Source: Candidatus Spongiihabitans sp.
GTDB taxonomy: Bacteria > Pseudomonadota > Gammaproteobacteria > Arenicellales > Poriferihabitantaceae
NCBI GenBank assembly: GCA_965261425.1
Contig: OZ253452.1
Span: 673,160-737,159 of the forward strand
Length of the DNA: 64,000 nucleotides
Direction of reading: 5' to 3'
Part shown: one piece after another, positions 3,324 through 63,328 of the stretch
Layout: each line of letters starts with the position of its first letter
Position numbering within the stretch: the stretch's first letter is position 1
Made by a program: the position numbers and the translations under genes
The notes under the pieces: generated by a model
The model's database searches: none
Seen by the model: only the letters and a program-made list of their open reading frames with translations
What the model was told of the DNA's origin: nothing

Positions 3324-4937
3324 TTAGCGCGTAAAAACCAAGTCGGCGGGAATGGCAAAGCCGATGCCCTCTACATTCTCATCAACGAACTTAAAAGTCG
3401 TAATTCCGACCAAATTACCGTCGCTGTCAAACAAGCCGCCGCCAGATGAACCCGGGGATATGGCGGCATCGGTTTGCACAACCTGATAACCGTCTATTTT
3501 CCGCAGTTGCGAAACAAGCCCAGCGGACAAGGATAAATCTAACCCTTGCGGCGCGCCCAAACTATACACATTCTCGCCCACCCTGAGGGTCTCGTATTTT
3601 CGCATTGTTGCAGGAACACCCCATAAACCATCAACCTCCAACAAGCAAAAATCCTGCTCGGTATCGCTGTGGCGGATAACCGCCGTCAAGGGCGTTGTCG
3701 TATCGACTCGACGATTGTTGGCTTTATACACGCTAATATCGCCACCCTCATCCACCACATGGCAGTTGGTTGCCACCACATTAGGGCGCACAATCACACC
3801 GCTACCCTGGCTGTCGTTGTTCACAATCACAACCACCGACCGCCAGGATTTTTCAAAAACCTGCTCGGCAATATTGGTGCTTTTAGATGGCTCCGCCAAG
3901 GCAAAGTTGTGATCCAAGCCGGCGTTTGTAGCAGAATCTGCTTTGCCTTGTTCGATATCTTGCTCAATGGCTCGTAATCGCCGTGCCGCTTCACGGCGGG
4001 CTGATTTTATTTCTGCGGCATCCAGATGCCAGTTATTCTCACGCAAACTATTCGTCGCTAATTCATTGCCGTTTGCCTTGGCAATGGAAAACCAGATAAA
4101 TGCCTCACGCTCATCGGTAATAAATCCTTCACCATTCCAATACATCACGCCCAAATTATATTGTGCGCTCGCATCCCCCTGCTCTGCCGCCAGCCGATAC
4201 CAGCGTACTGCCTCACTAGCATCCTGAGTAACCCCTCTGCCATTAGCGTACATCAGGCCCAAATTAAATTGTGCATCCGCAACCCCCTGCTCTGCCGCCT
4301 TGCGATACCAGCGTACTGCCTCACTAGCATCCTGAGTAACCCCTTCGCCTTTCCTGTACATCCCGCCCAAATTATATTGTGCGCTCGCATCCCCCTGCTC
4401 TGCCGCCTTGCGAGTCCAGCGTACTGCCTCGCTATAATCCTGAATAACCCCTTCGCCATTAGCGTACATCAGGCCCAAACCATATTGCGCGTTCGCATAC
4501 CCCTGCTCTGCCGCCTTTTGATACCAGCGTACCGCTTCGCGCTCATCTTCGATAACCCCGTAGCCATTCCAATACGCAACGCCCAAATTATATTGTGCGC
4601 TCGCATCCCCCTGCTCTGCCGCTTTTTGATACCAGCGTACTGCCTCGCTAGCATCCTCAATAACCCCTTTGCCATTAGCGTACATCACGCCCAAATTATA
4701 TTGTGCCTCCGCATACCCCTGCTCTGCCGCCTTGCGAGTCCAGCGTACTGCCTCACTAGCATCCTGAGTAACTCCTATGCCTTCATGGTACATCACGCCC
4801 AAATTATATTGTGCATCCGCATCCCCCTGCTCTGCCGATTCGTATTGCGAACAGAAATATGTATTATCAGACGGGCATTCGGCATGGGCAGTGTTAAACA
4901 CCATAGCAATCAGCAGTATTAACAGACTTTTTTTCAT
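3324..4937 (-). CDS. Secreted Sel1-repeat protein fused to a trypsin-like (S1/HtrA-type) serine peptidase domain
   Basis: Signal peptide MKKSLLILLIAMVFNTAHA. Seven 36-aa Sel1 units (AEQGxxxAQYNLGxMYxxGxGVxQDxSEAVRWYRKA). The C-terminal domain carries the triad contexts TNCHVV, DFCLLEV and GSSGGGLF. Confidence 0.85.
   Translation of the reverse strand: MKKSLLILLIAMVFNTAHAECPSDNTYFCSQYESAEQGDADAQYNLGVMYHEGIGVTQDASEAVRWTRKAAEQGYAEAQYNLGVMYANGKGVIEDASEAVRWYQKAAEQGDASAQYNLGVAYWNGYGVIEDEREAVRWYQKAAEQGYANAQYGLGLMYANGEGVIQDYSEAVRWTRKAAEQGDASAQYNLGGMYRKGEGVTQDASEAVRWYRKAAEQGVADAQFNLGLMYANGRGVTQDASEAVRWYRLAAEQGDASAQYNLGVMYWNGEGFITDEREAFIWFSIAKANGNELATNSLRENNWHLDAAEIKSARREAARRLRAIEQDIEQGKADSATNAGLDHNFALAEPSKSTNIAEQVFEKSWRSVVVIVNNDSQGSGVIVRPNVVATNCHVVDEGGDISVYKANNRRVDTTTPLTAVIRHSDTEQDFCLLEVDGLWGVPATMRKYETLRVGENVYSLGAPQGLDLSLSAGLVSQLRKIDGYQVVQTDAAISPGSSGGGLFDSDGNLVGITTFKFVDENVEGIGFAIPADLVFTR
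4067..4840. repeat. Intragenic ~108-bp tandem DNA repeats encoding the Sel1 units
   Basis: Blocks such as gcccaaattatattgtgcgctcgcatccccctgctctgccgc recur at about 108/216-bp spacing with near identity. Confidence 0.85.
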
Positions 4938-5160: not shown

Positions 5161-5255
5161 TGTACAGGATGTACGGGCAAATAATTGCTCCTGCATTATT
5201 TGCACTTCCGCCATCCATGGCGGTCGTATGCCGATTTTGCAGGAGCAAAAATCGG
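5161..5255 (+). mobile_element. Hairpin-module miniature element, 95-nt form (45-nt core plus 50-nt module B at 5177-5226)
   Basis: Identical to the 45-nt copy at 20855-20899 except for a 50-nt block inserted between GTACGG and TATGCC. TA lies on both sides (5159-5160 and 5256-5257). Confidence 0.8.
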
Positions 5256-5429
5256 TAAAGTCCCGCTTCCGAGATTATGCGAGAATCCAACATTCGTAGC
5301 TCCGTAGGAGCGGTATCTTTCTTTTGTGTCGCTCCTACGGAGCTTTGGCTGTCTCATTTATTTGTGCTACAAAGGTGTCATCCCTACGGGATTTTACTCA
5401 ATTCTTAATTTTCAATTATCAATTAAATC

Positions 5430-5517
5430 GAGACTGTGTAAAAATCCAATATTAGTCATTCCTAACCCCCCTTGCCCCCCTTATCAGGGGGGAATTGAGT
5501 GGAAAGTCCCTCTGATA
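5430..5517. repeat. GAGACTGTG module plus the intact arm of a long palindromic repeat (CCTTGCCCCCCTTATCAGGGGGG...)
   Basis: 5463-5517 is the reverse complement of the sequence flanking the IS110 left end at 6868-6890. It contains the uninterrupted IS110 target string. Confidence 0.75.
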
Positions 5518-5607
5518 AGATACTGTGTTAAAAATCCACTTATTTTCAACTTTTTTTCGGCTCATTGTTAGAATGACTTTGCCGGCTGGGATTCCACCAC
5601 AAACGCG

Positions 5608-6602
5608 CTATCTGCAAGCATAATTGACATCAAAAGGCTGTTCTGATTTTAATACCCCATAAGATATAACCAGTAGTTTCCGCATCACCGCGCACACTGC
5701 CACTTGTTTAGGTTTGCCTTTATCAAGTAGCCTATTGTATAAATTCTGCGTGACTGGATTGTGTCGCGTTGCCGTCAGTGCTGGCATATAGAGAGACTTT
5801 CTCAGGCGTTTGTGCCCTATTTTTGACAGACTACTCTTGTTGATACTACTGCCAGACTGGGTTATCTTCGGATTCAACCCAGCAAAACTGGCCACTTGCT
5901 TGGCGTTATCAAATGACGATATATCCCCCATATAGGCGAGGATAGCCCAAGCCGTTTTGTTGCCAATCCCGCCAATGCTGGTCAATAACCGTACTTGTTG
6001 ACGCAACACAGAATCGCCTACAACCAAGTCCTTGATTTCCTGTTCAACAATCACTATTTGCCGACAGATGTACCGAATCATCGCTTTGATTGATTTGCTG
6101 GCGGTCTTATTCAAACTCACTGGCAAACGATTCTTCTCTTGGGTTGATTGTTTGTTTAACTGCTCCAAGCGCGTCATCAGGCATTGTAACGCAACACTGG
6201 CTTCGCTTTTGGGCTTGAACAGATTTTTCTCTAACTCACCTTTGGCCACAATATGTTGACAATAACGCGCAATGCTGCCAGCACTTGTGCCCTGTGGGTA
6301 TCGGATTTATCCGTTTTATTACGCAACATTTCCATCTTGACAAACGCATGGGTTCTCATTGGGTTCGCCACAATCACCTGGTCGCCTGAGCGATGTAAAT
6401 AATACGCCAAAGCAACCCCATAAACGCTGGTGGCTTCCATACAAAACACCCGCTCTTGCGCTGCGTCCAATGATTTTAGCCATTTGGACAAGGCTTTGAA
6501 GCCTTTATGATCATTAGCAAAAGACGGGTTGTGGTCAACACCCTCAACGCACACAGCACCATCAAAACGTGCTTTAGATATATCAATACCGATACATAAC
6601 AT
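5608..6602 (-). pseudogene. IS110-family DEDD recombinase/transposase split by a 17-nt insertion
   Basis: The N-terminal ORF (MLCIGIDISKARFD...RNKTDKSD) and the C-terminal ORF (...LLTSIGGIGNKTAWAILAYMGD..FAGLNP, Transposase_20-like) are in different frames. Deleting 6283-6299 fuses them into about 325 codons. Confidence 0.9.
6283..6299. repeat. 17-nt cassette ACTTGTGCCCTGTGGGT (equivalently CTTGTGCCCTGTGGGTA at 6284-6300) inserted in the IS110 transposase gene
   Basis: It matches the tandem unit at 2596-2690 and the copies at 44113 and 44282. Removing it gives ...KTDKSD|AGSIARYCQ... in frame. Confidence 0.85.
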
Positions 6603-6867
6603 AACATTCTCCGGTTATAATTGTAGATAGGTTGGATCATTTAACTTCGGTGCATCCTCGTACTATTCGTGCTCAGATTTTTGGTCTTGCACCAGATACT
6701 GTCCGCACTTGATGAAGTTAAAGCGGGTAGTAGGTGCGATACCTTGTCAACAAGTTTAAAAACTTACTGGGGGCTACTGCATCACTACTACCCATCCAAC
6801 CGCCGTTGGATAGGGTCCATTAAAAACCACTAAACGAGTTGATAATTTACCCGATTGGGATCATACG
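6603..6867 (-). ncRNA. Putative IS110 guide (bridge-type) RNA region in the non-coding left end
   Basis: A 265-nt non-coding segment lies upstream of the recombinase, as in IS110-subgroup elements. A long-range stem (6725-6736 paired with 6783-6793) encloses a hairpin and loops. This call comes from the family architecture, not from a covariance model. Confidence 0.35.
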
Positions 6868-6888
6868 AGGGGGGCAAGGGGGTTGGGT

Positions 6889-6915
6889 TTTCAATTCTCA
6901 ATTCTCAATTCTCAA
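6889..6915. repeat. Heptamer tandem repeat (TTCTCAA) x3, overlapping the cobS stop codon
   Basis: Direct reading: ttcaattctcaattctcaattctcaa. Confidence 0.85.
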
Positions 6916-7640
6916 CTTGCAACAACCAATCCAAGCAACACAAAAGTTTCGGTGGTTTCGACTAGCGCACCGTAAATATCACCAGTCGTACCATGAAGTG
7001 GCTTTATAAAATAGAGATAAATAGCTGAAAACGCTATCGTACTTGCAATGACGGCAACCATAAACGCCGATAGCGAGAGCATCCCAAGCACGACCGATAA
7101 AAGCAGTGCCGATATGCCAATCGCCTTGTGTGATAAGCCGGTTTGCAACCCAGCACCACTGCCATTATGACGGATATAGGGGATGGTGCAAATAACCAGA
7201 CTCAAAACGATACGCGCCGCCACCGGTGCGAATACCAACCACATCCAATGCCCCTGTTGCAACAAGATGGACAGGGCGGCAAACTTTGCCAGCAATACCA
7301 ACACCACGACCACAATCGCGCCGACCCCGCAGGCGGTATCTTTCATAATCTCCAGCATGCGCTCCGGCGTATGTCCGCCCATCCAAGCATCGCCACAATC
7401 TGCTAAGCCATCTAAATGCAGTGCGCCGGTTATGCCGCTCCAGACGCTCAACAGGATAATCGCAGTGATGGCTGGGGACAGCCAATGCCCCAAACCCCAA
7501 GCAATCGTGGCAAGAATAACCCCGATAAGCATCCCCACCGGCGCATACCAGCACACCGCATCGCCAGATAAACCCGATTGCCGTTTTTTGCCAAGCGGCA
7601 ATCGGGTCAAGAATTGAATGGCATACAGGAATGAATTCAT
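6912..7640 (-). CDS. cobS: adenosylcobinamide-GDP ribazoletransferase (cobalamin synthase)
   Basis: 242-aa polytopic membrane ORF. N-terminal FLTRLPLG and the HLDGLADCGDA motif are typical of CobS. Confidence 0.9.
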   Translation of the reverse strand: MNSFLYAIQFLTRLPLGKKRQSGLSGDAVCWYAPVGMLIGVILATIAWGLGHWLSPAITAIILLSVWSGITGALHLDGLADCGDAWMGGHTPERMLEIMKDTACGVGAIVVVVLVLLAKFAALSILLQQGHWMWLVFAPVAARIVLSLVICTIPYIRHNGSGAGLQTGLSHKAIGISALLLSVVLGMLSLSAFMVAVIASTIAFSAIYLYFIKPLHGTTGDIYGALVETTETFVLLGLVVAS

Positions 7641-11376: not shown

Positions 11377-11506
11377 GAGACTGTGCAAGAACCCAAATTC
11401 CGTCATTCCCGCGCAGGAGACTGTGCAAAAAACCAACATCCGTCATTCCTGCACCGACCCCGTCTTTCCTGCGAAAGCAGGAATCCAGTAAAATAGCCAA
11501 ACCTGC
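11377..11506. repeat. Mosaic intergenic repeat (two GAGACTGTGCAA modules plus CCTGCGAAAGCAGGAATCCAGTAAAATAGCC module)
   Basis: The modules are shared with 15026-15149, 58951-59074 and others. Confidence 0.85.
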
Positions 11507-14978: not shown

Positions 14979-15025
14979 GACGATTGTTATCATACGAGAC
15001 ATTCCAGTGGTCGGGAAAGCCACCA

Positions 15026-15149
15026 GAGACCGTGCAAAAATCCAACATCCGTCTTTCCTGCACCGACCTCGTCTTTCCTGCGAAAGCAGGAATCCAGTAA
15101 AATACGCAAACCCGCAAGGGTTTTCGGTTTCAATTTTCAATTTTCAATT
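15026..15149. repeat. Mosaic intergenic repeat ending in a heptamer run (TTCAATT x3)
   Basis: Shared modules. It contains the hairpin AAACCCGCAAGGGTTT between the convergent malic-enzyme and iolE genes, which could act as a bidirectional terminator. Confidence 0.8.
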
Positions 15150-29367: not shown

Positions 29368-29485
29368 GATACTGTGTCAAATCTTTATGGGCAACCCTTG
29401 CGGGTTTGGCTATTTTACTGGATTCCTGCTTTCGAGACTGTGCAAAAAACCAATATTCGGCATTCCTAACCCCCCTTGCCCCCCT
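29368..29485. repeat. Mosaic intergenic repeat ending in the IS110 target string CCTTGCCCCCCT
   Basis: GATACTGTG.., CAACCCTTGCGGGTTTGGCTATTTTACTGGATTCCTGC, GAGACTGTGCAAAAAACCAATATTCGGCATTCCTAACCCCCCTTGCCCCCCT. The stem-loop followed by a T-run after iolB may terminate transcription. Confidence 0.8.
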
Positions 29486-29909
29486 CGTATGATCCCAATC
29501 GGGTAAATTATCAACTCGTTTAGTGGTTTTTAATGGACCCTATCCAACGGCGGTTGGATGGGTAGTCGTGATGCAGTAGCCCCCAGTAAGTTTTTAAACT
29601 TGTTGATAAGGTATCGCACCTACTACCCGCTTTACCGGTTTTTGCTCCTCGACAATTGCTCCTGCATTGTTCTAATAAGTTACATCCATGTAACGATACA
29701 AAACCGGCATACGACCGCCATGGATGGCGGAAGTGCAAATAATGCAGGAGCAATTATTTGCCCGTACATCCTTGTACATTAACATCATCAAGTGCGGACA
29801 GTATCTGGTGCAAGACCAAAAATCTGAGCACGAATAGTACGAGGATGCACCGAAGTTAAATGATCCAACCTATCTACAATTATAACCGGAGAATGTGATG
29901 TTATGTATC
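29486..29909 (+). mobile_element. Second IS110-family copy: left end plus the first 4 codons only (truncated)
   Basis: Apart from the 145-nt insertion it is nearly identical (a handful of mismatches) to the reverse complement of 6591-6867, including ATG TTA TGT ATC (MLCI). Homology stops at 29909. Confidence 0.9.
29635..29779 (-). mobile_element. Hairpin-module miniature element, 145-nt form (core plus modules B and C) inside the IS110 left end
   Basis: It is absent from the otherwise near-identical copy at 6603-6867. The filled site reads CCCGCTT-TA-[145 nt]-TA-ACATCATC and the empty site reads CCCGCTT-TA-ACTTCATC. Confidence 0.9.
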
Positions 29910-29935
29910 AGTAGTCATCATCATAGGAGGTATTA

Positions 29936-30442
29936 ATGACAGTAGAGATTATGCGAACGGACAAGTCGGCCTGCGATCTTCGGCGCGCCGCTGCGGCGTG
30001 CAGGGACGCGAAAGCGGCCCGACGGATGCTGGCGATTGCGTTGATTTTGGACGGCACTGACCGCAAGACGGCGGCCGCGAACTGCGGGATGGATCGCCAG
30101 ACGTTGCGTGACTGGGTACACCGTTACAATGACGCGGGGATTGAGGGTCTCTCGAACCGGCGTTCGCCAGGACGGCAGCCCCTGCTCAGCGTGGCACAGA
30201 AGGCGGAGTTGGCATCGCTTGTGCGTGAGGGGCCGGATCCCGAAACGGACGGCGTGGTGCGCTGGCGGCGCATTGACCTCAAGCGCAAGATTGAGGAGCG
30301 CTTTGGCGTTGTCATGCATGAGCGGACCGTTAGCAAACAACTGGTAAAACTTGGTTTTCGACGCTTGTCTGTGCGCCCGCAGCATCCGAAATCCGACCCG
30401 GATGCGCAGGATGCGTTTAAAAAAACTTCGCTGCAGAGGTAG
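29936..30442 (+). CDS. IS630-family transposase OrfA (HTH / DNA-binding part)
   Basis: Winged-helix/HTH region (…RQTLRDWVHRYNDAGIEGLSNRRSPGRQPLLS…) typical of IS630/Tc1 N-termini. It ends 17 nt after an A7 run. Confidence 0.85.
   Translation: MTVEIMRTDKSACDLRRAAAACRDAKAARRMLAIALILDGTDRKTAAANCGMDRQTLRDWVHRYNDAGIEGLSNRRSPGRQPLLSVAQKAELASLVREGPDPETDGVVRWRRIDLKRKIEERFGVVMHERTVSKQLVKLGFRRLSVRPQHPKSDPDAQDAFKKTSLQR
30419..30425 (+). promoter_or_regulatory. A7 slippery run: candidate -1 ribosomal frameshift or transcriptional slippage site joining OrfA and OrfB
   Basis: GCG TTT AAA AAA ACT in frame 0. Slipping back one base gives …KK-NFAAEV… and continues into the DDE domain. Confidence 0.6.
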
Positions 30443-30999
30443 CGGCCGTTCTGCCCAAAACGGCCTGCGGCAAACCATTGGAGATTTGGTTTCAGGACGA
30501 AGCTCGTGTGGGTCAGCAAGGGACGCTGACACGTATATGGGCCGAACGGGGAACCCGGCCGCGTGCGCCGCGTGATACACGTTATACGTCGGGCTATATC
30601 TTCGGCGCGGTTTGTCCCGAACGCGCCGAGGCTGCTGCGCTGATCATGCCGTATGCGGACACGTCCGCTATGAATGCACATCTGTGCGAGATCGCCAGGA
30701 CGGTCGCGGCTGGGGCCCATGCCTTGCTCATCCTCGACGGTGCAGGCTGGCACGGATCAGCAAAACGGGAAGTGCCAGACAACATCACCCTGCTCAAACT
30801 CCCGCCCTATGCGCCAGAACTCAACCCGATGGAAAACGTTTGGGCCTACCTGCGCGCCAACAAGCTGGCAATCTCTGTGTTTGAATCCTACGATGAGTTC
30901 GTCGACAAATGCTGCGATGCCTGGAATTTCTTCGCAGAGGACAAACAGGCAATCACATCAATTACATCACGTAATTGGGCCAAAACAGTCAATCAATAG
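30424..30999 (+). CDS. IS630-family transposase OrfB (DDE domain), -1 frame relative to OrfA
   Basis: From AAC at 30424 the -1 frame reads NFAAEVAAVLPKTACGKPLEIWFQDEARVGQQG…LILDGAGWH…PPYAPELNPMENVW, which carries the DDE triad contexts. An OrfA-OrfB fusion would be about 355 aa. Confidence 0.85.
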   Translation, partial: NFAAEVAAVLPKTACGKPLEIWFQDEARVGQQGTLTRIWAERGTRPRAPRDTRYTSGYIFGAVCPERAEAAALIMPYADTSAMNAHLCEIARTVAAGAHALLILDGAGWHGSAKREVPDNITLLKLPPYAPELNPMENVWAYLRANKLAISVFESYDEFVDKCCDAWNFFAEDKQAITSITSRNWAKTVNQ

Positions 31000-31194
31000 A
31001 GCCGTTGGACTAATAGGGTCGATAACGAACACTTGGCGACACCAATTACGATTGGACGTGTACGGATCGTGCCGATTGCTTAGCTAGGACAGATTAGATA
31101 TCTAAAACCGATTTTGTGAGCAGACTCTAATTAATGGGACAGTTAATTTACTCGTAACAACATTTGAGCTTTGGGTTGACAATTATGGTTTTGT

Positions 31195-43605: not shown

Positions 43606-43748
43606 TGTACAGGATGTACGGGCAGATAGCTGCTCCTGCATTATCTGCACTTCCGTCTTCCATGACGGTCGTATGCCGGTTTTGCATCGCTACATGGATG
43701 TAACTTAGTAGGGCAATGCAGGAGCAATTGCCGAGAAGCAAAAACCGG
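43606..43748 (+). mobile_element. Hairpin-module miniature element, 143-nt form (core plus diverged modules B and C) inside the transposase ORF
   Basis: It has the same module order as 29635-29779. Removing exactly 43606-43748 rejoins …DDATSRLY|LALHFAPTETT… in frame. Confidence 0.85.
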
Positions 43749-44112: not shown

Positions 44113-44129
44113 TACCCGCAGGGCACAAG
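44113..44129 (-). repeat. 17-nt cassette (TACCCGCAGGGCACAAG, the reverse complement of CTTGTGCCCTGCGGGTA) inserted in the ISNCY-like ORF
   Basis: The upstream frame (…FIDDYNQRF) and the downstream frame (AVTAQHTDNAHRALL…) differ by exactly this 17-nt block. Confidence 0.8.
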
Positions 44130-44281
44130 TGCCGTTACCGCGCAACACACCGACAATGCACATCGTGCGCTATTGCACAGCGTCGAGGAGCTTAAACTGA
44201 TCCTCTGCCGGCACCATCAGCGTAAACTGTCTAAGAATTTAACCTTATCATTTTGTAACACCGAATATCAGCTGACTGGCT

Positions 44282-44298
44282 CTTGTGCCCTGCGGGTA
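44282..44298 (+). repeat. 17-nt cassette CTTGTGCCCTGCGGGTA inserted in the ISNCY-like ORF (opposite orientation to 44113)
   Basis: After …NTEYQLTG the frame breaks. Removing the block gives …LTG-YGKGYRLMR…. A separate 1-nt indel near 44325 then leads into ATITLCEDG…. Confidence 0.7.
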
Positions 44299-58950: not shown

Positions 58951-59074
58951 ACCCGTCTTCCCCGCGTAGGAGACTGTGCAAAAAACCAACATCCGTCATT
59001 CCTGCGAAGCCTGTCCCCGCGCAGGCGGGGAGCAGGAATCCAGTGAAACACACAAACCCGCAAGGGTTTTCCGC
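58951..59074. repeat. Mosaic intergenic repeat (GAGACTGTGCAAAAAACCAACATCCGTCATTCCTGC, GC hairpin, GGAATCCAGTGAAAC…AAACCCGCAAGGGTTTTC)
   Basis: Modules shared with the other mosaic repeats. Located between the divergent argS and fbpA genes. Confidence 0.85.
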
Positions 59075-63132: not shown

Positions 63133-63328
63133 GCGACTGTGCAAGAAACCCACGCTAAGCATGTGTTACATGCGGAAAACCCTTGCGGGTTTGGCTATTT
63201 TACTGGGTTCCTGCTTTCGCAGGAATGACGCATATTGGATTTTTGCACAGTCTCTTCCGCAGGAATGACGGACTAGGTTGCTTCTCAATTATCAATTATC
63301 AATTTTCCATTTTCAATTTTCAATTTCC
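63133..63328. repeat. Mosaic intergenic repeat plus heptamer runs (CAATTAT x2, TTTCAAT variants)
   Basis: GCGACTGTGCAAGAAACCC…GGAAAACCCTTGCGGGTTTGGCTATTTTACTGGGTTCCTGCTTTCGCAGGAATGACG…TTTTTGCACAGTCTC…, followed by ctcaattatcaattatcaattttccattttcaattttcaatttcc. The hairpin and T-run just after fbpC could terminate transcription. Confidence 0.85.

What the first reader, a model, noticed from the sequence alone, without database searches (positions are those of the whole stretch)
5463..6890. Both IS110 copies occupy the same position of a palindromic repeat: sequence-specific targeting and a candidate guide (bridge-type) RNA
Read in the IS orientation, the left junctions are identical in both copies: …CCTTGCCCCCCT|CGTATGATCCCAATCGG (6867/6868 and 29485/29486). 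At copy 1 the right junction is …TTAACACAGTATCT|TATCAGAGGGAC…. Joining the flanks recreates AACCCCCTTGCCCCCCT-TATCAGAGGG…CCCCCCTGATA-AGGGGGGCAAGGGGGGTT, a long palindrome. The untouched arm of that palindrome (5470-5487) still reads CCTTGCCCCCCTTATCAG. CT occurs at both junctions, as expected for an IS110-type core dinucleotide. IS110-family recombinases are known to be directed by a non-coding RNA encoded in the element end (the IS621 bridge RNA and seekRNA work of 2024). Here the 265-nt left end has a long-range stem (6725-6736 paired with 6783-6793). Read as RNA, its enclosed loops contain GCCCCC (identical to the target) and CAAGG (complementary to the target CCTTG). These matches are short and could arise by chance.
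Basis: partly seen in the sequence, partly recalled or inferred. Interest (0 to 1): 0.6.

Follow-up and report, generated by a model that had tools for sequence, protein, structure and literature searches.

The report
IS110 element with bridge RNA
This is an ordinary but clear member of the IS110 family of jumping genes. Its upstream end encodes a bridge (guide) RNA that matches the palindromic host repeat it sits in and its own ends, and both copies in this window are now dead.

Summary
Copy 1 is a 1350-nt IS110-group element at 5518-6867 (minus strand), flanked by CT on both sides. It sits in one arm of a strong palindrome. Copy 2 (29486-29909) is only a left-end remnant. It is interrupted by a 145-nt MITE-like insert and cut off by an IS630-type element.

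The 265-nt left end encodes a bridge RNA. A covariance model built from 15 relatives, excluding this family and IS621, hits 6640-6794 at 112.7 bits. The same model finds the experimentally validated IS621 bridge RNA in E. coli in the same register.

The four guide segments fall where expected:
- LDG ACAGUAUCU equals the right end (9/9).
- RDG UACGAG complements CT+CGTA (6/6).
- RTG UGAUAAG complements CTTATCA (7/7 in copy 2; copy 1 has one mutation).
- LTG AGCCCCC matches TGCCCCC (6/7), but its two core positions read AG, not CU.

Eighteen left junctions from related sponge-symbiont genomes all lie at the same position of the same repeat. Guides covary with targets and ends across relatives.

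Copy 1's recombinase is split by a 17-nt insertion. This is a new member of a known kind, and interest is modest.

The parts
5518..6867 (-). Copy 1 of the IS110-group element. It is 1350 nt: the 1333-nt element plus a 17-nt insertion. The span includes one copy of the CT core, at 5518-5519.
   Evidence: Junctions read. Length compared with 11 intact 1333/1334-nt copies.
6868..6885 (-). Left target flank CAACCCCCTTGCCCCCCT. The CT core is at 6868-6869 and target positions 1-7 (TGCCCCC) at 6870-6876.
5463..5517 (-). Right target flank: TATCAGAGGG, the spacer, and the second, untouched arm of the palindrome. That arm holds an intact, unoccupied target site, CCTTGCCCCCCT|TATCAG, at 5470-5487 on the plus strand.
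6603..6867 (-). Left end, 265 nt, non-coding, upstream of the recombinase ATG at 6602. It encodes the bridge RNA.
6640..6794 (-). Bridge RNA core: the target-binding loop followed by the donor-binding loop.
   Evidence: Hit by model R1, which was built without this family: 112.7 bits, E about 1e-23, full length. Structure supported by covariation.
6725..6793 (-). Target-binding stem-loop. Outer stem: 6779-6793 pairs with 6725-6741. Inner hairpin: 6751-6766.
6767..6775 (-). Left target guide, AGCCCCC + AG. It has the same sense as target positions 1-7 (TGCCCCC, 6/7 identical). The two core positions read AG instead of CU.
   Evidence: Register fixed by alignment to the IS621 left target guide AUCGGGCCU. 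A sister lineage has AAUCCCC in AATCCCC targets, 7/7.
6743..6749 (-). Right target guide, UGACAAG. It is the reverse complement of CTTATCA with one mismatch. Every other copy, including copy 2 at 29604-29610, has UGAUAAG, which matches 7/7.
6641..6721 (-). Donor-binding stem-loop. Outer stems: UUAACUUC pairs with GAAGUUAA, and GUGCG with UGCAC. Inner hairpin: 6669-6692.
6694..6702 (-). Left donor guide, ACAGUAUCU. It is identical to the last 9 nt of the right end including the core (5518-5526), 9/9.
   Evidence: It covaries with the right end in the L037 family, where both read ACAGGAUCU.
6657..6662 (-). Right donor guide, UACGAG. It is the reverse complement of CT+CGTA (core plus left-end tip, 6864-6869), 6/6. 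The following G can pair with target C7, the handshake position.
   Evidence: ACGAG pairs with CTCGT and ACAAG with CTTGT across all 17 aligned left ends.
6860..6865 (-). Candidate -10 box, TATGAT, in the left-end tip.
   Evidence: Same position as TATTAT of IS621 and TATCTT of relatives. Sequence-level evidence only.
5533..5538 (-). Candidate -35 box, TGGATT, in the right end. It lies 17 nt from the -10 box only when right and left ends are joined in a circle.
   Evidence: Relatives have TTGATT, TTGCTT or TTGACT at the same place and IS621 has TTGCAG. Sequence-level evidence only.
5608..6602 (-). Recombinase gene, split into ORFs of 123 aa and 213 aa. With the insertion removed it encodes 325 aa carrying D7, E56, D98, D101 and S244.
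6283..6299 (-). 17-nt insertion, ACCCACAGGGCACAAGT, directly after the D101 codon. It causes a frameshift.
   Evidence: Absent from the intact copy L001. Position. The same unit forms the tandem array at 2596-2691.
5518..5607 (-). Right end, 90 nt.
29468..29485 (+). Left target flank of copy 2, AACCCCCCTTGCCCCCCT.
29486..29909 (+). Copy 2, a left-end remnant only. Target-binding loop at 29559-29642, donor-binding loop at 29783-29860, and the first four codons of the gene.
   Evidence: Model R1 hits it in two halves.
29635..29779 (+). 145-nt MITE-like insert with a TA duplication, sitting between the two loops of copy 2's bridge RNA.
   Evidence: Related copies at 43611-43748 and 5166-5239.
29910..31000 (+). 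GC-rich IS630-type element (HTH and DDE_3 ORFs) that truncates copy 2. Its end coordinate is approximate.

Best explanation
Copy 1 is an IS110-group insertion sequence of the IS621 type. Its recombinase is directed by a bridge RNA encoded in the left end, between the element tip and the recombinase start codon.

The RNA has two internal-loop stem-loops.
- The donor-binding loop reads the element's own joined ends. The left donor guide ACAGUAUCU has the sense of the right-end tip and so pairs with its bottom strand. [quoted passage not shown]
- The target-binding loop reads one arm of a dispersed REP-like palindrome of the host. The left target guide AGCCCCC has the sense of TGCCCCC. The right target guide UGAUAAG pairs with CTTATCA.

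Strand exchange at the CT core places the element after ...CCCCCCT.

By analogy with IS621, the RNA is probably made mainly from the excised circle. A -35-like box in the right end and a -10-like box in the left-end tip come 17 nt apart only when the ends are joined.

Shown here:
- homology of the protein and of the RNA to validated bridge systems;
- guide complementarity at homologous positions;
- covariation of guides with ends and targets in relatives;
- identical insertion position in all surveyed copies.

Inferred:
- transcription of the RNA;
- binding of the RNA by the recombinase;
- the order of strand exchange.

Both window copies are inactive relics. Copy 1 has a frameshifting 17-nt insert and a mutated right target guide. 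Copy 2 is a disrupted left-end fragment.
For: Protein:
- The repaired ORF has the Pfam domains PF01548 and PF02371.
- It aligns end to end with the solved bridge recombinases ISCro4 (E = 3e-55) and IS621 (E = 7e-51). D7, E56, D98, D101 and S244 are in place, and S244 aligns with IS621 S241.

RNA:
- Model R1 was built from 15 relatives and excludes this family and IS621.
- It hits window 6640-6794 at 112.7 bits and hits copy 2 in two halves.
- It hits the validated IS621 bridge RNA in E. coli (L092 1604-1754, 32.6 bits, E about 1e-5) with LTG, RTG, LDG and RDG columns aligned.
- On 46 distinct hits, 89.6% of cells form pairs, against 36-41% when partners are slid by 1-3 columns. 35 of 42 pairs show compensatory changes, and 0 of 500 shuffles reach the observed covariation score.

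Guides in the window:
- LDG 9/9.
- RDG 6/6.
- RTG 7/7 in copy 2 and 6/7 in copy 1.
- LTG 6/7 at the non-core positions.

Covariation in relatives:
- RDG ACGAG goes with CTCGT ends in 4 of the 17 aligned left ends and ACAAG with CTTGT in the other 13.
- The LDG reads ACAGGAUCU only in the family whose right end is ACAGGATCT.
- At fixed register, guides match their own target better than other families' targets. LTG: mean 4.65/7 own against 2.24/7 cross. RTG: 3.75/5 own against 1.97/5 cross. Perfect RTG matches occur in 10 of 20 own pairings against 4 of 294 cross pairings.
- The sister lineage with LTG AAUCCCC sits mostly in AATCCCC|CT, 10 of 13 copies.

Site survey:
- 18 of 18 left junctions and 17 of 18 right junctions lie at the same position of the repeat, in unrelated gene neighbourhoods.
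- Unoccupied sites exist nearby in the same genomes.

Literature:
- The guide rules and the 85.7% of IS110 elements with a predicted bridge RNA come from PMC11208160.
- The handshake positions come from PMC11208158.
Against: - There is no expression, binding or recombination data for this element.
- The two core positions of the left target guide read AG, so they cannot pair with the bottom strand of CT. In IS621, pairing to both strands of the core is strongly preferred (PMC11208160).
- The LTG matches the window's target only 6/7.
- Some copies sit in repeat variants that match their LTG poorly: L009 at 4/7 (7/7 minus the three mismatches read), and L016 and L093 at 5/7.
- The -35-like box, TGGATT, is weak (3 of 6 consensus positions).
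- Rfam gave no match, so the structural test rests on a model built here with rough E-values.
- The alignment used for counting pairs was fitted to the model, which favours the structure.
Confidence: 0.9

Rival explanations
1. The recombinase, or a host factor, recognises the palindrome or its extruded hairpin directly as DNA. On this reading the folded left end is only a leader that regulates recombinase expression, and its matches to the target are incidental.
For: - The target is a strong hairpin, and the core sits at the junction of a C6/G6 stem and its loop.
- A 2026 preprint reports that a target stem-loop adds specificity for ISPpu10 (10.64898/2026.03.19.712850).
- 6-mers matching the target turn up somewhere in 25% of shuffled left ends.
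- The LTG does not match the core.
Against: - The guides sit at the positions homologous to the IS621 guides.
- They change together with targets and ends across families.
- The 9/9 donor match reaches that length in only 0.5% of shuffles even when allowed anywhere in the left end.
- Relatives with the same RNA fold insert into quite different, non-C-rich sequences that match their own loops.
- Structure sensing could add to RNA guidance but cannot replace it.
Confidence: 0.04
2. The copies share a site because a composite unit of repeat plus element was duplicated or spread by homologous recombination, not because each insertion was targeted.
For: The repeat is itself part of a larger dispersed repeat family (family D3). 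Flanks are similar for 16-54 nt.
Against: - Beyond about 17 nt, the left flanks of copies 1 and 2 are unrelated.
- The other loci have different neighbouring genes and different repeat variants: TTG, AAAT and AAC.
- The element occupies either arm and either orientation.
- Empty sites exist.
Confidence: 0.03
3. The element belongs to the IS1111/seekRNA-type arrangement, with the guide RNA encoded downstream of the gene in the right end.
For: It is in the same protein family. The right end contains a conserved block.
Against: - The right end is only 90 nt and the left end is 265 nt.
- The covariance-model hit is upstream of the gene in every relative.
- There are no long subterminal inverted repeats.
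Confidence: 0.01

Closest known systems
IS621 of Escherichia coli (IS110 group; bridge RNA shown by Durrant et al. 2024, PMC11208160; structures by Hiraizumi et al. 2024, PMC11208158, PDB 8WT6)
   Same: - Domain architecture and catalytic residues are the same.
- Both have a CT core and a left end longer than the right end.
- Both have a bridge RNA with a target loop followed by a donor loop, and the two RNAs can be aligned by one covariance model.
- The donor ends are almost the same: right end ...ACAGTATCT in both, and left end YGTAT.
- Both have a promoter split across the joined ends.
- Both target a repetitive extragenic palindrome.
   Different: - The match is E = 7e-51 over the full length, and no shared DNA similarity was seen outside the guide and end motifs.
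- The target differs: CCCCCCT|TATCA here, ATCAGGCCT|AC in IS621.
- The LTG core positions read AG here and CU in IS621.
- The right target guide is 7 nt or longer here and 4 nt in wild-type IS621.
- The LDG pairs with the full core here (CU), whereas IS621 has CA.
- This element has two 5' hairpins instead of one.
- The host is a sponge-symbiont gammaproteobacterium.
ISCro4 bridge recombinase (PDB 9T56)
   Same: It is the best solved-structure match, E = 3e-55 over residues 4-321.
   Different: Only the protein was compared.
ISPpu10 and ISPpu9 of Pseudomonas putida (IS110 elements that target REP sequences; 10.64898/2026.03.19.712850, PMC12288879)
   Same: All copies sit in one conserved intergenic palindromic repeat, and the target can form a GC-rich stem-loop.
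   Different: In ISPpu10 the stem-loop lies 5' of the target and pairs with the left target. Here the C6/G6 stem straddles the core, with the left target on one arm and the sequence beyond the right target on the other. No sequence comparison with these elements was made.
Unnamed relatives found here (Methylophagaceae MAG OZ252593.1, Methyloprofundus, Bathymodiolus symbionts, Paraglaciecola; 55-68% protein identity)
   Same: They share the RNA fold, the same LDG, the split promoter and the CT core. Several also target palindromic repeats, for example AATCAATCGAGTCT|GACCCCATTGATT.
   Different: Their target-binding loops and targets differ, and most have CU or CC at the LTG core positions.

Membership tests
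IS110 family, IS110 group (IS621-like bridge-RNA element) | Recombinase with a DEDD RuvC-like domain (PF01548), a Tnp domain (PF02371) and the catalytic serine. | tested here: met
   Both domains score above the curated cut-offs. D7, E56, D98, D101 and S244 align with the IS621 residues. This holds only after the 17-nt insert is removed; as it stands the gene is split.
IS110 family, IS110 group (IS621-like bridge-RNA element) | No long terminal inverted repeats; the element is flanked by the CT core dinucleotide on both sides. | tested here: met
   The junctions are CT|CGTATG... and ...GTATCT|TATCAG. CT is the only sequence the two junctions share.
IS110 family, IS110 group (IS621-like bridge-RNA element) | The non-coding left end is longer than the right end, and the guide RNA is encoded upstream of the gene. 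| tested here: met
   The left end is 265 nt and the right end 90 nt. The covariance-model hit lies upstream of the gene on the same strand in the window and in all 45 relatives that were hit.
IS110 family, IS110 group (IS621-like bridge-RNA element) | RNA with two internal-loop stem-loops, homologous to a validated bridge RNA. | tested here: met
   Model R1 hits the window (112.7 bits) and the IS621 bridge RNA (32.6 bits) in register. 35 of 42 pairs show compensatory changes.
IS110 family, IS110 group (IS621-like bridge-RNA element) | The donor-binding loop is complementary to the element's own ends. | tested here: met
   LDG 9/9 and RDG 6/6. Both covary with the ends in relatives.
IS110 family, IS110 group (IS621-like bridge-RNA element) | The target-binding loop is complementary to the non-core positions of the insertion site. 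| tested here: met
   RTG 7/7 in copy 2 and in all other copies, 6/7 in copy 1. LTG 6/7 here and 7/7 in the sister lineage.
IS110 family, IS110 group (IS621-like bridge-RNA element) | [quoted passage not shown] | tested here: not met
   The LTG core columns read AG. Relatives show CU, CC, CA, AA or AC there, and the IS621 LDG itself reads CA. This feature is therefore variable in nature and does not exclude membership.
IS110 family, IS110 group (IS621-like bridge-RNA element) | A sigma-70 promoter is rebuilt at the joined right-end/left-end junction. | tested here: inconclusive
   TGGATT, a 17-nt spacer and TATGAT lie at the conserved position, but the -35 box is weak and there is no expression data.
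IS110 family, IS110 group (IS621-like bridge-RNA element) | The RNA binds the recombinase and is required for, and reprograms, recombination. | not testable with these tools
   This needs biochemistry or an in vivo assay.
IS1111 group (guide RNA in the right end, subterminal inverted repeats of 7-17 bp) | A long right end that carries the guide RNA, and long subterminal inverted repeats. | tested here: not met
   The right end is 90 nt, and the RNA model hits only the left end.

The most novel reading that the evidence does not exclude
In this lineage the left target guide has lost all pairing to the CT core (AG instead of CU). At the same time, the core lies at the stem-loop junction of a C6/TTATCA/G6 hairpin in the target. 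The target's own secondary structure might open the core or present it, replacing bottom-strand core pairing. That would be a natural variant of the structure-gated recognition recently proposed for ISPpu10.
Probability: 0.12. Interest if true: 0.45.

Novelty: new member of a known kind. Interest (0 to 1): 0.25.

Why it matters
It gives a clean natural example of bridge-RNA targeting, from sponge-symbiont Gammaproteobacteria. The target, donor and all four guides can be read directly from sequence. Two sister lineages differ in the left target guide and tend to sit in different repeat variants. It also documents natural variation at the core-binding positions of the left guides, which is relevant to design rules for bridge recombinases. 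For annotation, it explains two repeat-associated interruptions in this window and shows that both are dead relics. It does not change what is known about the family.

Tried and rejected
- Rfam 15, at gathering scores on the whole window and at E up to 10 on 5400-6950, gave nothing relevant. I therefore built my own model.
- A shuffle test for guide matches anywhere in the left end showed that the 6-mers are not significant on their own: 25% of shuffles for each 6-mer, 5% for the 7-mer, 0.5% for the 9-mer. I replaced it with fixed-register comparisons.
- The RNAalifold consensus mis-drew the outer stem of the donor loop. It also paired the left-end tip with the right donor guide, which is really the guide-donor complementarity.
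- My first manual structure, referenced to L019, was off by one column for five families. I corrected it by a diagonal search.
- A shifted register for the left target guide that would rescue core pairing was tested by hand and fits worse: 5/9 against 6/9 here, and 5/9 against 7/9 in the sister lineage.
- Programmed -1 frameshifting across the 17-nt insert: the frames overlap without stops, but no slippery heptamer is present. The interrupted lineage also shows an excess of non-synonymous changes. It is most likely simply broken.
- The window is not identical to the fetched locus L016 of OZ253450.1, so its exact source record was not pinned down.
Full report
**What is in the sequence**

Read on the minus strand, copy 1 runs from 6867 (CGTATGATCC...) to 5518 (...AACACAGTATCT). 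CT lies immediately outside the left tip (6869-6868) and forms the last two bases of the right end (5519-5518). No other bases are shared by the two junctions. The element is 1350 nt. Eleven intact copies fetched from a metagenome are 1333-1334 nt. The difference is a 17-nt insertion at 6283-6299 that falls right after the codon of catalytic D101 and splits the gene into ORFs of 123 aa and 213 aa.

Copy 2 is not a complete element. Only the left end survives, at 29486-29909. It carries a 145-nt MITE-like insert with a TA duplication at 29635-29779. It is cut after the fourth codon by a GC-rich IS630-type element with HTH and DDE_3 ORFs.

**The target**

Joining the flanks of copy 1 recreates an imperfect palindrome. 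It folds as a single DNA hairpin of -30.3 kcal/mol (z = -6.8; 0 of 200 shuffles as good). Each arm carries one site, CCCCCCT|TATCAG. The element sits in one arm. The other arm (5470-5487) is intact and is the only unoccupied site in the 64 kb. Beyond about 17 nt the left flanks of copies 1 and 2 are unrelated, so these are separate insertions.

**The protein**

With the 17 nt removed, the ORF is 325 aa. It has PF01548 and PF02371. It aligns over its whole length with the two bridge recombinases of known structure, ISCro4 (E = 3e-55) and IS621 (E = 7e-51). D7, E56, D98 and D101 are conserved, and S244 falls at the position of IS621 S241.

**The RNA**

Rfam 15 gave no bridge-RNA match to this region. 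I therefore collected relatives:
- a protein search returned 1755 homologues at E <= 1e-30;
- one scan of GTDB genomes gave 80 loci.

Left ends of 17 representatives align well. They share these features, all with compensatory changes:
- a 5' hairpin;
- a short hairpin AUCCAAYGGCGRUUGGAU;
- a long stem enclosing a variable internal loop;
- a second stem-loop with a nearly invariant internal loop.

I built covariance model R1 from 15 of these, leaving out the window's own family and IS621. Its hits were:
- window 6640-6794 on the minus strand, at 112.7 bits (E about 1e-23);
- copy 2 in two halves, on either side of the MITE-like insert;
- the region directly upstream of the recombinase gene in 45 relatives, down to 40% protein identity;
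- the IS621 bridge RNA, at 32.6 bits (E about 1e-5).

I had located the IS621 bridge RNA in E. coli genomes with its 177-nt sequence recalled from the 2024 paper. It matched at 100% identity.

In the model alignment the guide segments line up as follows:

| Guide | IS621 | Window |
|---|---|---|
| LTG | AUCGGGCCU | AGCCCCCAG |
| RTG | ..GUAG | UGACAAG |
| LDG | ACAGUAUCA | ACAGUAUCU |
| RDG | CAAG | ACGAG (3' end of the 6-nt guide UACGAG) |

On the 46 distinct hits, 89.6% of cells are paired, against 36-41% when partners are slid by one to three columns. 35 of 42 pairs have compensatory changes, and 0 of 500 shuffles reach the observed covariation score. That alignment was fitted to the model, so the percentage paired leans towards the structure. 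The slid controls and the independent hit on IS621 do not depend on that.

**Guides against DNA in the window**

I used the rules of Durrant et al. (PMC11208160): left guides have the sense of the top strand, right guides are complementary to it, and the core is included.
- **LDG** ACAGUAUCU (6702-6694) equals the last nine bases of the right end.
- **RDG** UACGAG (6662-6657) is the reverse complement of CT+CGTA.
- **RTG** is UGAUAAG in copy 2 and in every other copy examined, the exact reverse complement of CTTATCA. Copy 1 has a private U-to-C change (UGACAAG).
- **LTG** AGCCCCC matches TGCCCCC at six of seven positions.
- The base after the RDG is G, which can pair with target C7. This is the handshake position described by Hiraizumi et al. 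(PMC11208158).

With position and register fixed by homology, a uniform-base model gives these chance probabilities (my arithmetic): about 4e-6 for 9/9, 2e-4 for 6/6, 6e-5 for 7/7, and 1e-3 for at least 6/7.

**Covariation of guides with DNA**

- The RDG reads ACGAG in the four aligned left ends whose tip is CTCGT, and ACAAG in the 13 whose tip is CTTGT.
- The only family with right end ACAGGATCT has LDG ACAGGAUCU.
- At fixed register, 20 elements match their own left target at a mean of 4.65 of 7 positions, against 2.24 for other families' targets. For the right target the figures are 3.75 of 5 against 1.97. Perfect right-target matches occur in 10 of 20 own pairings and 4 of 294 cross pairings.
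- Within the window's own element family there are two lineages. One has LTG AAUCCCC, and 10 of its 13 copies sit in AATCCCC|CT (7/7). The other, to which the window belongs, has AGCCCCC, and 3 of its 5 copies sit in TGCCCCC-type arms. This association is weak: about p = 0.04 by hand, and the events are not independent.

**Survey of copies**

Eighteen left junctions were examined: two in the window, eleven from ENA metagenome ERZ26693861, four from the GTDB scan, and one from ERZ26051151. All lie after ...CCCCCT of this repeat. Of 18 right junctions, 17 read TATCAG(G/A)GGG; L012 has a rearranged right end. The neighbouring genes differ. Unoccupied sites occur in the same loci.

The closest genomes are sponge-symbiont MAGs: Candidatus Spongiihabitans, Candidatus Poriferihabitaceae, and an unnamed gammaproteobacterium.

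**Promoter**

In all relatives a -35-like hexamer (TTGATT, TTGCTT or TTGACT) sits in the right end, 15 nt from its tip. A -10-like hexamer (TATCTT) starts at the third base of the left end. The spacer is 17 nt only when the ends are joined. IS621 has TTGCAG and TATTAT at the same places. The window has TGGATT and TATGAT. This fits the circle-dependent promoter described for IS621, but here it is sequence-level evidence only.

**What differs from IS621**

The two core positions of the LTG read AG, so they cannot pair with the bottom strand of CT. These columns vary in relatives: CU, CC, CA, AA, AC. The IS621 LDG itself ends in CA. Incomplete core pairing by the left guides is therefore natural variation rather than a failure of membership.

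The target core lies at the junction between a C6 stem arm and its loop. Whether that structure contributes to recognition, as proposed for a differently placed stem-loop in ISPpu10 (10.64898/2026.03.19.712850), was not tested.

**State of the copies**

All five known copies of the AGCCCCC lineage carry the 17-nt insertion, at different loci. Compared with intact copies they show more non-synonymous than synonymous codon changes (6:1, 13:6, 6:0). Intact copies differ from one another almost only synonymously. No slippery site for frameshifting was found. The simplest reading is a non-autonomous, decaying lineage that either spread before the break or was moved in trans.

**Verdict**

The element is a typical IS110-group bridge-RNA insertion sequence that targets a REP-like palindrome, which is the known behaviour of this family (PMC11208160 and its reference 11; PMC12288879). 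It is a new member of a known kind.

Noticed in passing
window 6283-6299; 2596-2691; about 44116-44132 and 44279-44295: A 17-nt unit (CTTGTGCCCTGCGGGTG or its complement) appears in three settings. It is a single insertion that frameshifts the IS110 recombinase. It forms a six-copy tandem array. It occurs as two inverted single copies about 150 nt apart. It behaves like a very small dispersed or mobile repeat. All five copies of one IS lineage, at five different loci, carry it at the same position.
   Followed up: partly
window 29635-29779 (related: 43611-43748, 5166-5239, 5147-5241/43592-43686): A 145-nt MITE-like dispersed repeat is inserted with a TA duplication between the two loops of copy 2's bridge RNA. 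A TA duplication would fit mobilisation by the IS630-type elements present in the same genome.
   Followed up: partly
window 29910 to about 31000: A GC-rich IS630-type element (HTH ORF 29936-30442, DDE_3 ORF 30478-30999, apparently needing a frameshift) truncates copy 2. Its G+C content is visibly higher than that of the surrounding sequence.
   Followed up: partly
L092 (E. coli NN5, NZ_CP126348.1) 1470-1560: An IS621 left-end fragment is inserted into the DNA that encodes the left target guide (ATCGGGCCT) of another IS621. The guide-coding DNA is itself a target, so the element self-targets.
   Followed up: no
L020-L033, L054 and L037-L045 (Methylophagaceae MAG OZ252593.1): Two related bridge-RNA IS families have 15 and 9 copies in one genome. 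In the L037 family the right target is constant (GACCCC) but the left target varies widely. This resembles the half-match insertions described in a 2026 preprint.
   Followed up: partly
L035 and L049: These relatives are inserted at ...AAGACCT|TGTAT..., a donor-like site that looks like the tip of another IS110 left end. This suggests tandem or nested insertion guided by the donor loop.
   Followed up: no
window 5428-5481, 11415-11468, 15024-15077, 29432-29485, 58968-59021 and partners near 63165-63272: The IS target palindrome is the variable end of a larger dispersed repeat family that shares GAGACTGTGCAAAAA(A/T)CCAA...CATTCCT. Other members end in a different palindrome (CCTGCGAAAGCAGG) and carry no IS.
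   Followed up: no
window 3983-4930: Seven tandem 108-nt repeats lie inside the 537-aa ORF (3324-4937, minus strand). They encode Sel1-like AEQG...AQYNLG repeats fused to a C-terminal region that looks protease-like by its sequence; no domain search was run on it.
   Followed up: no
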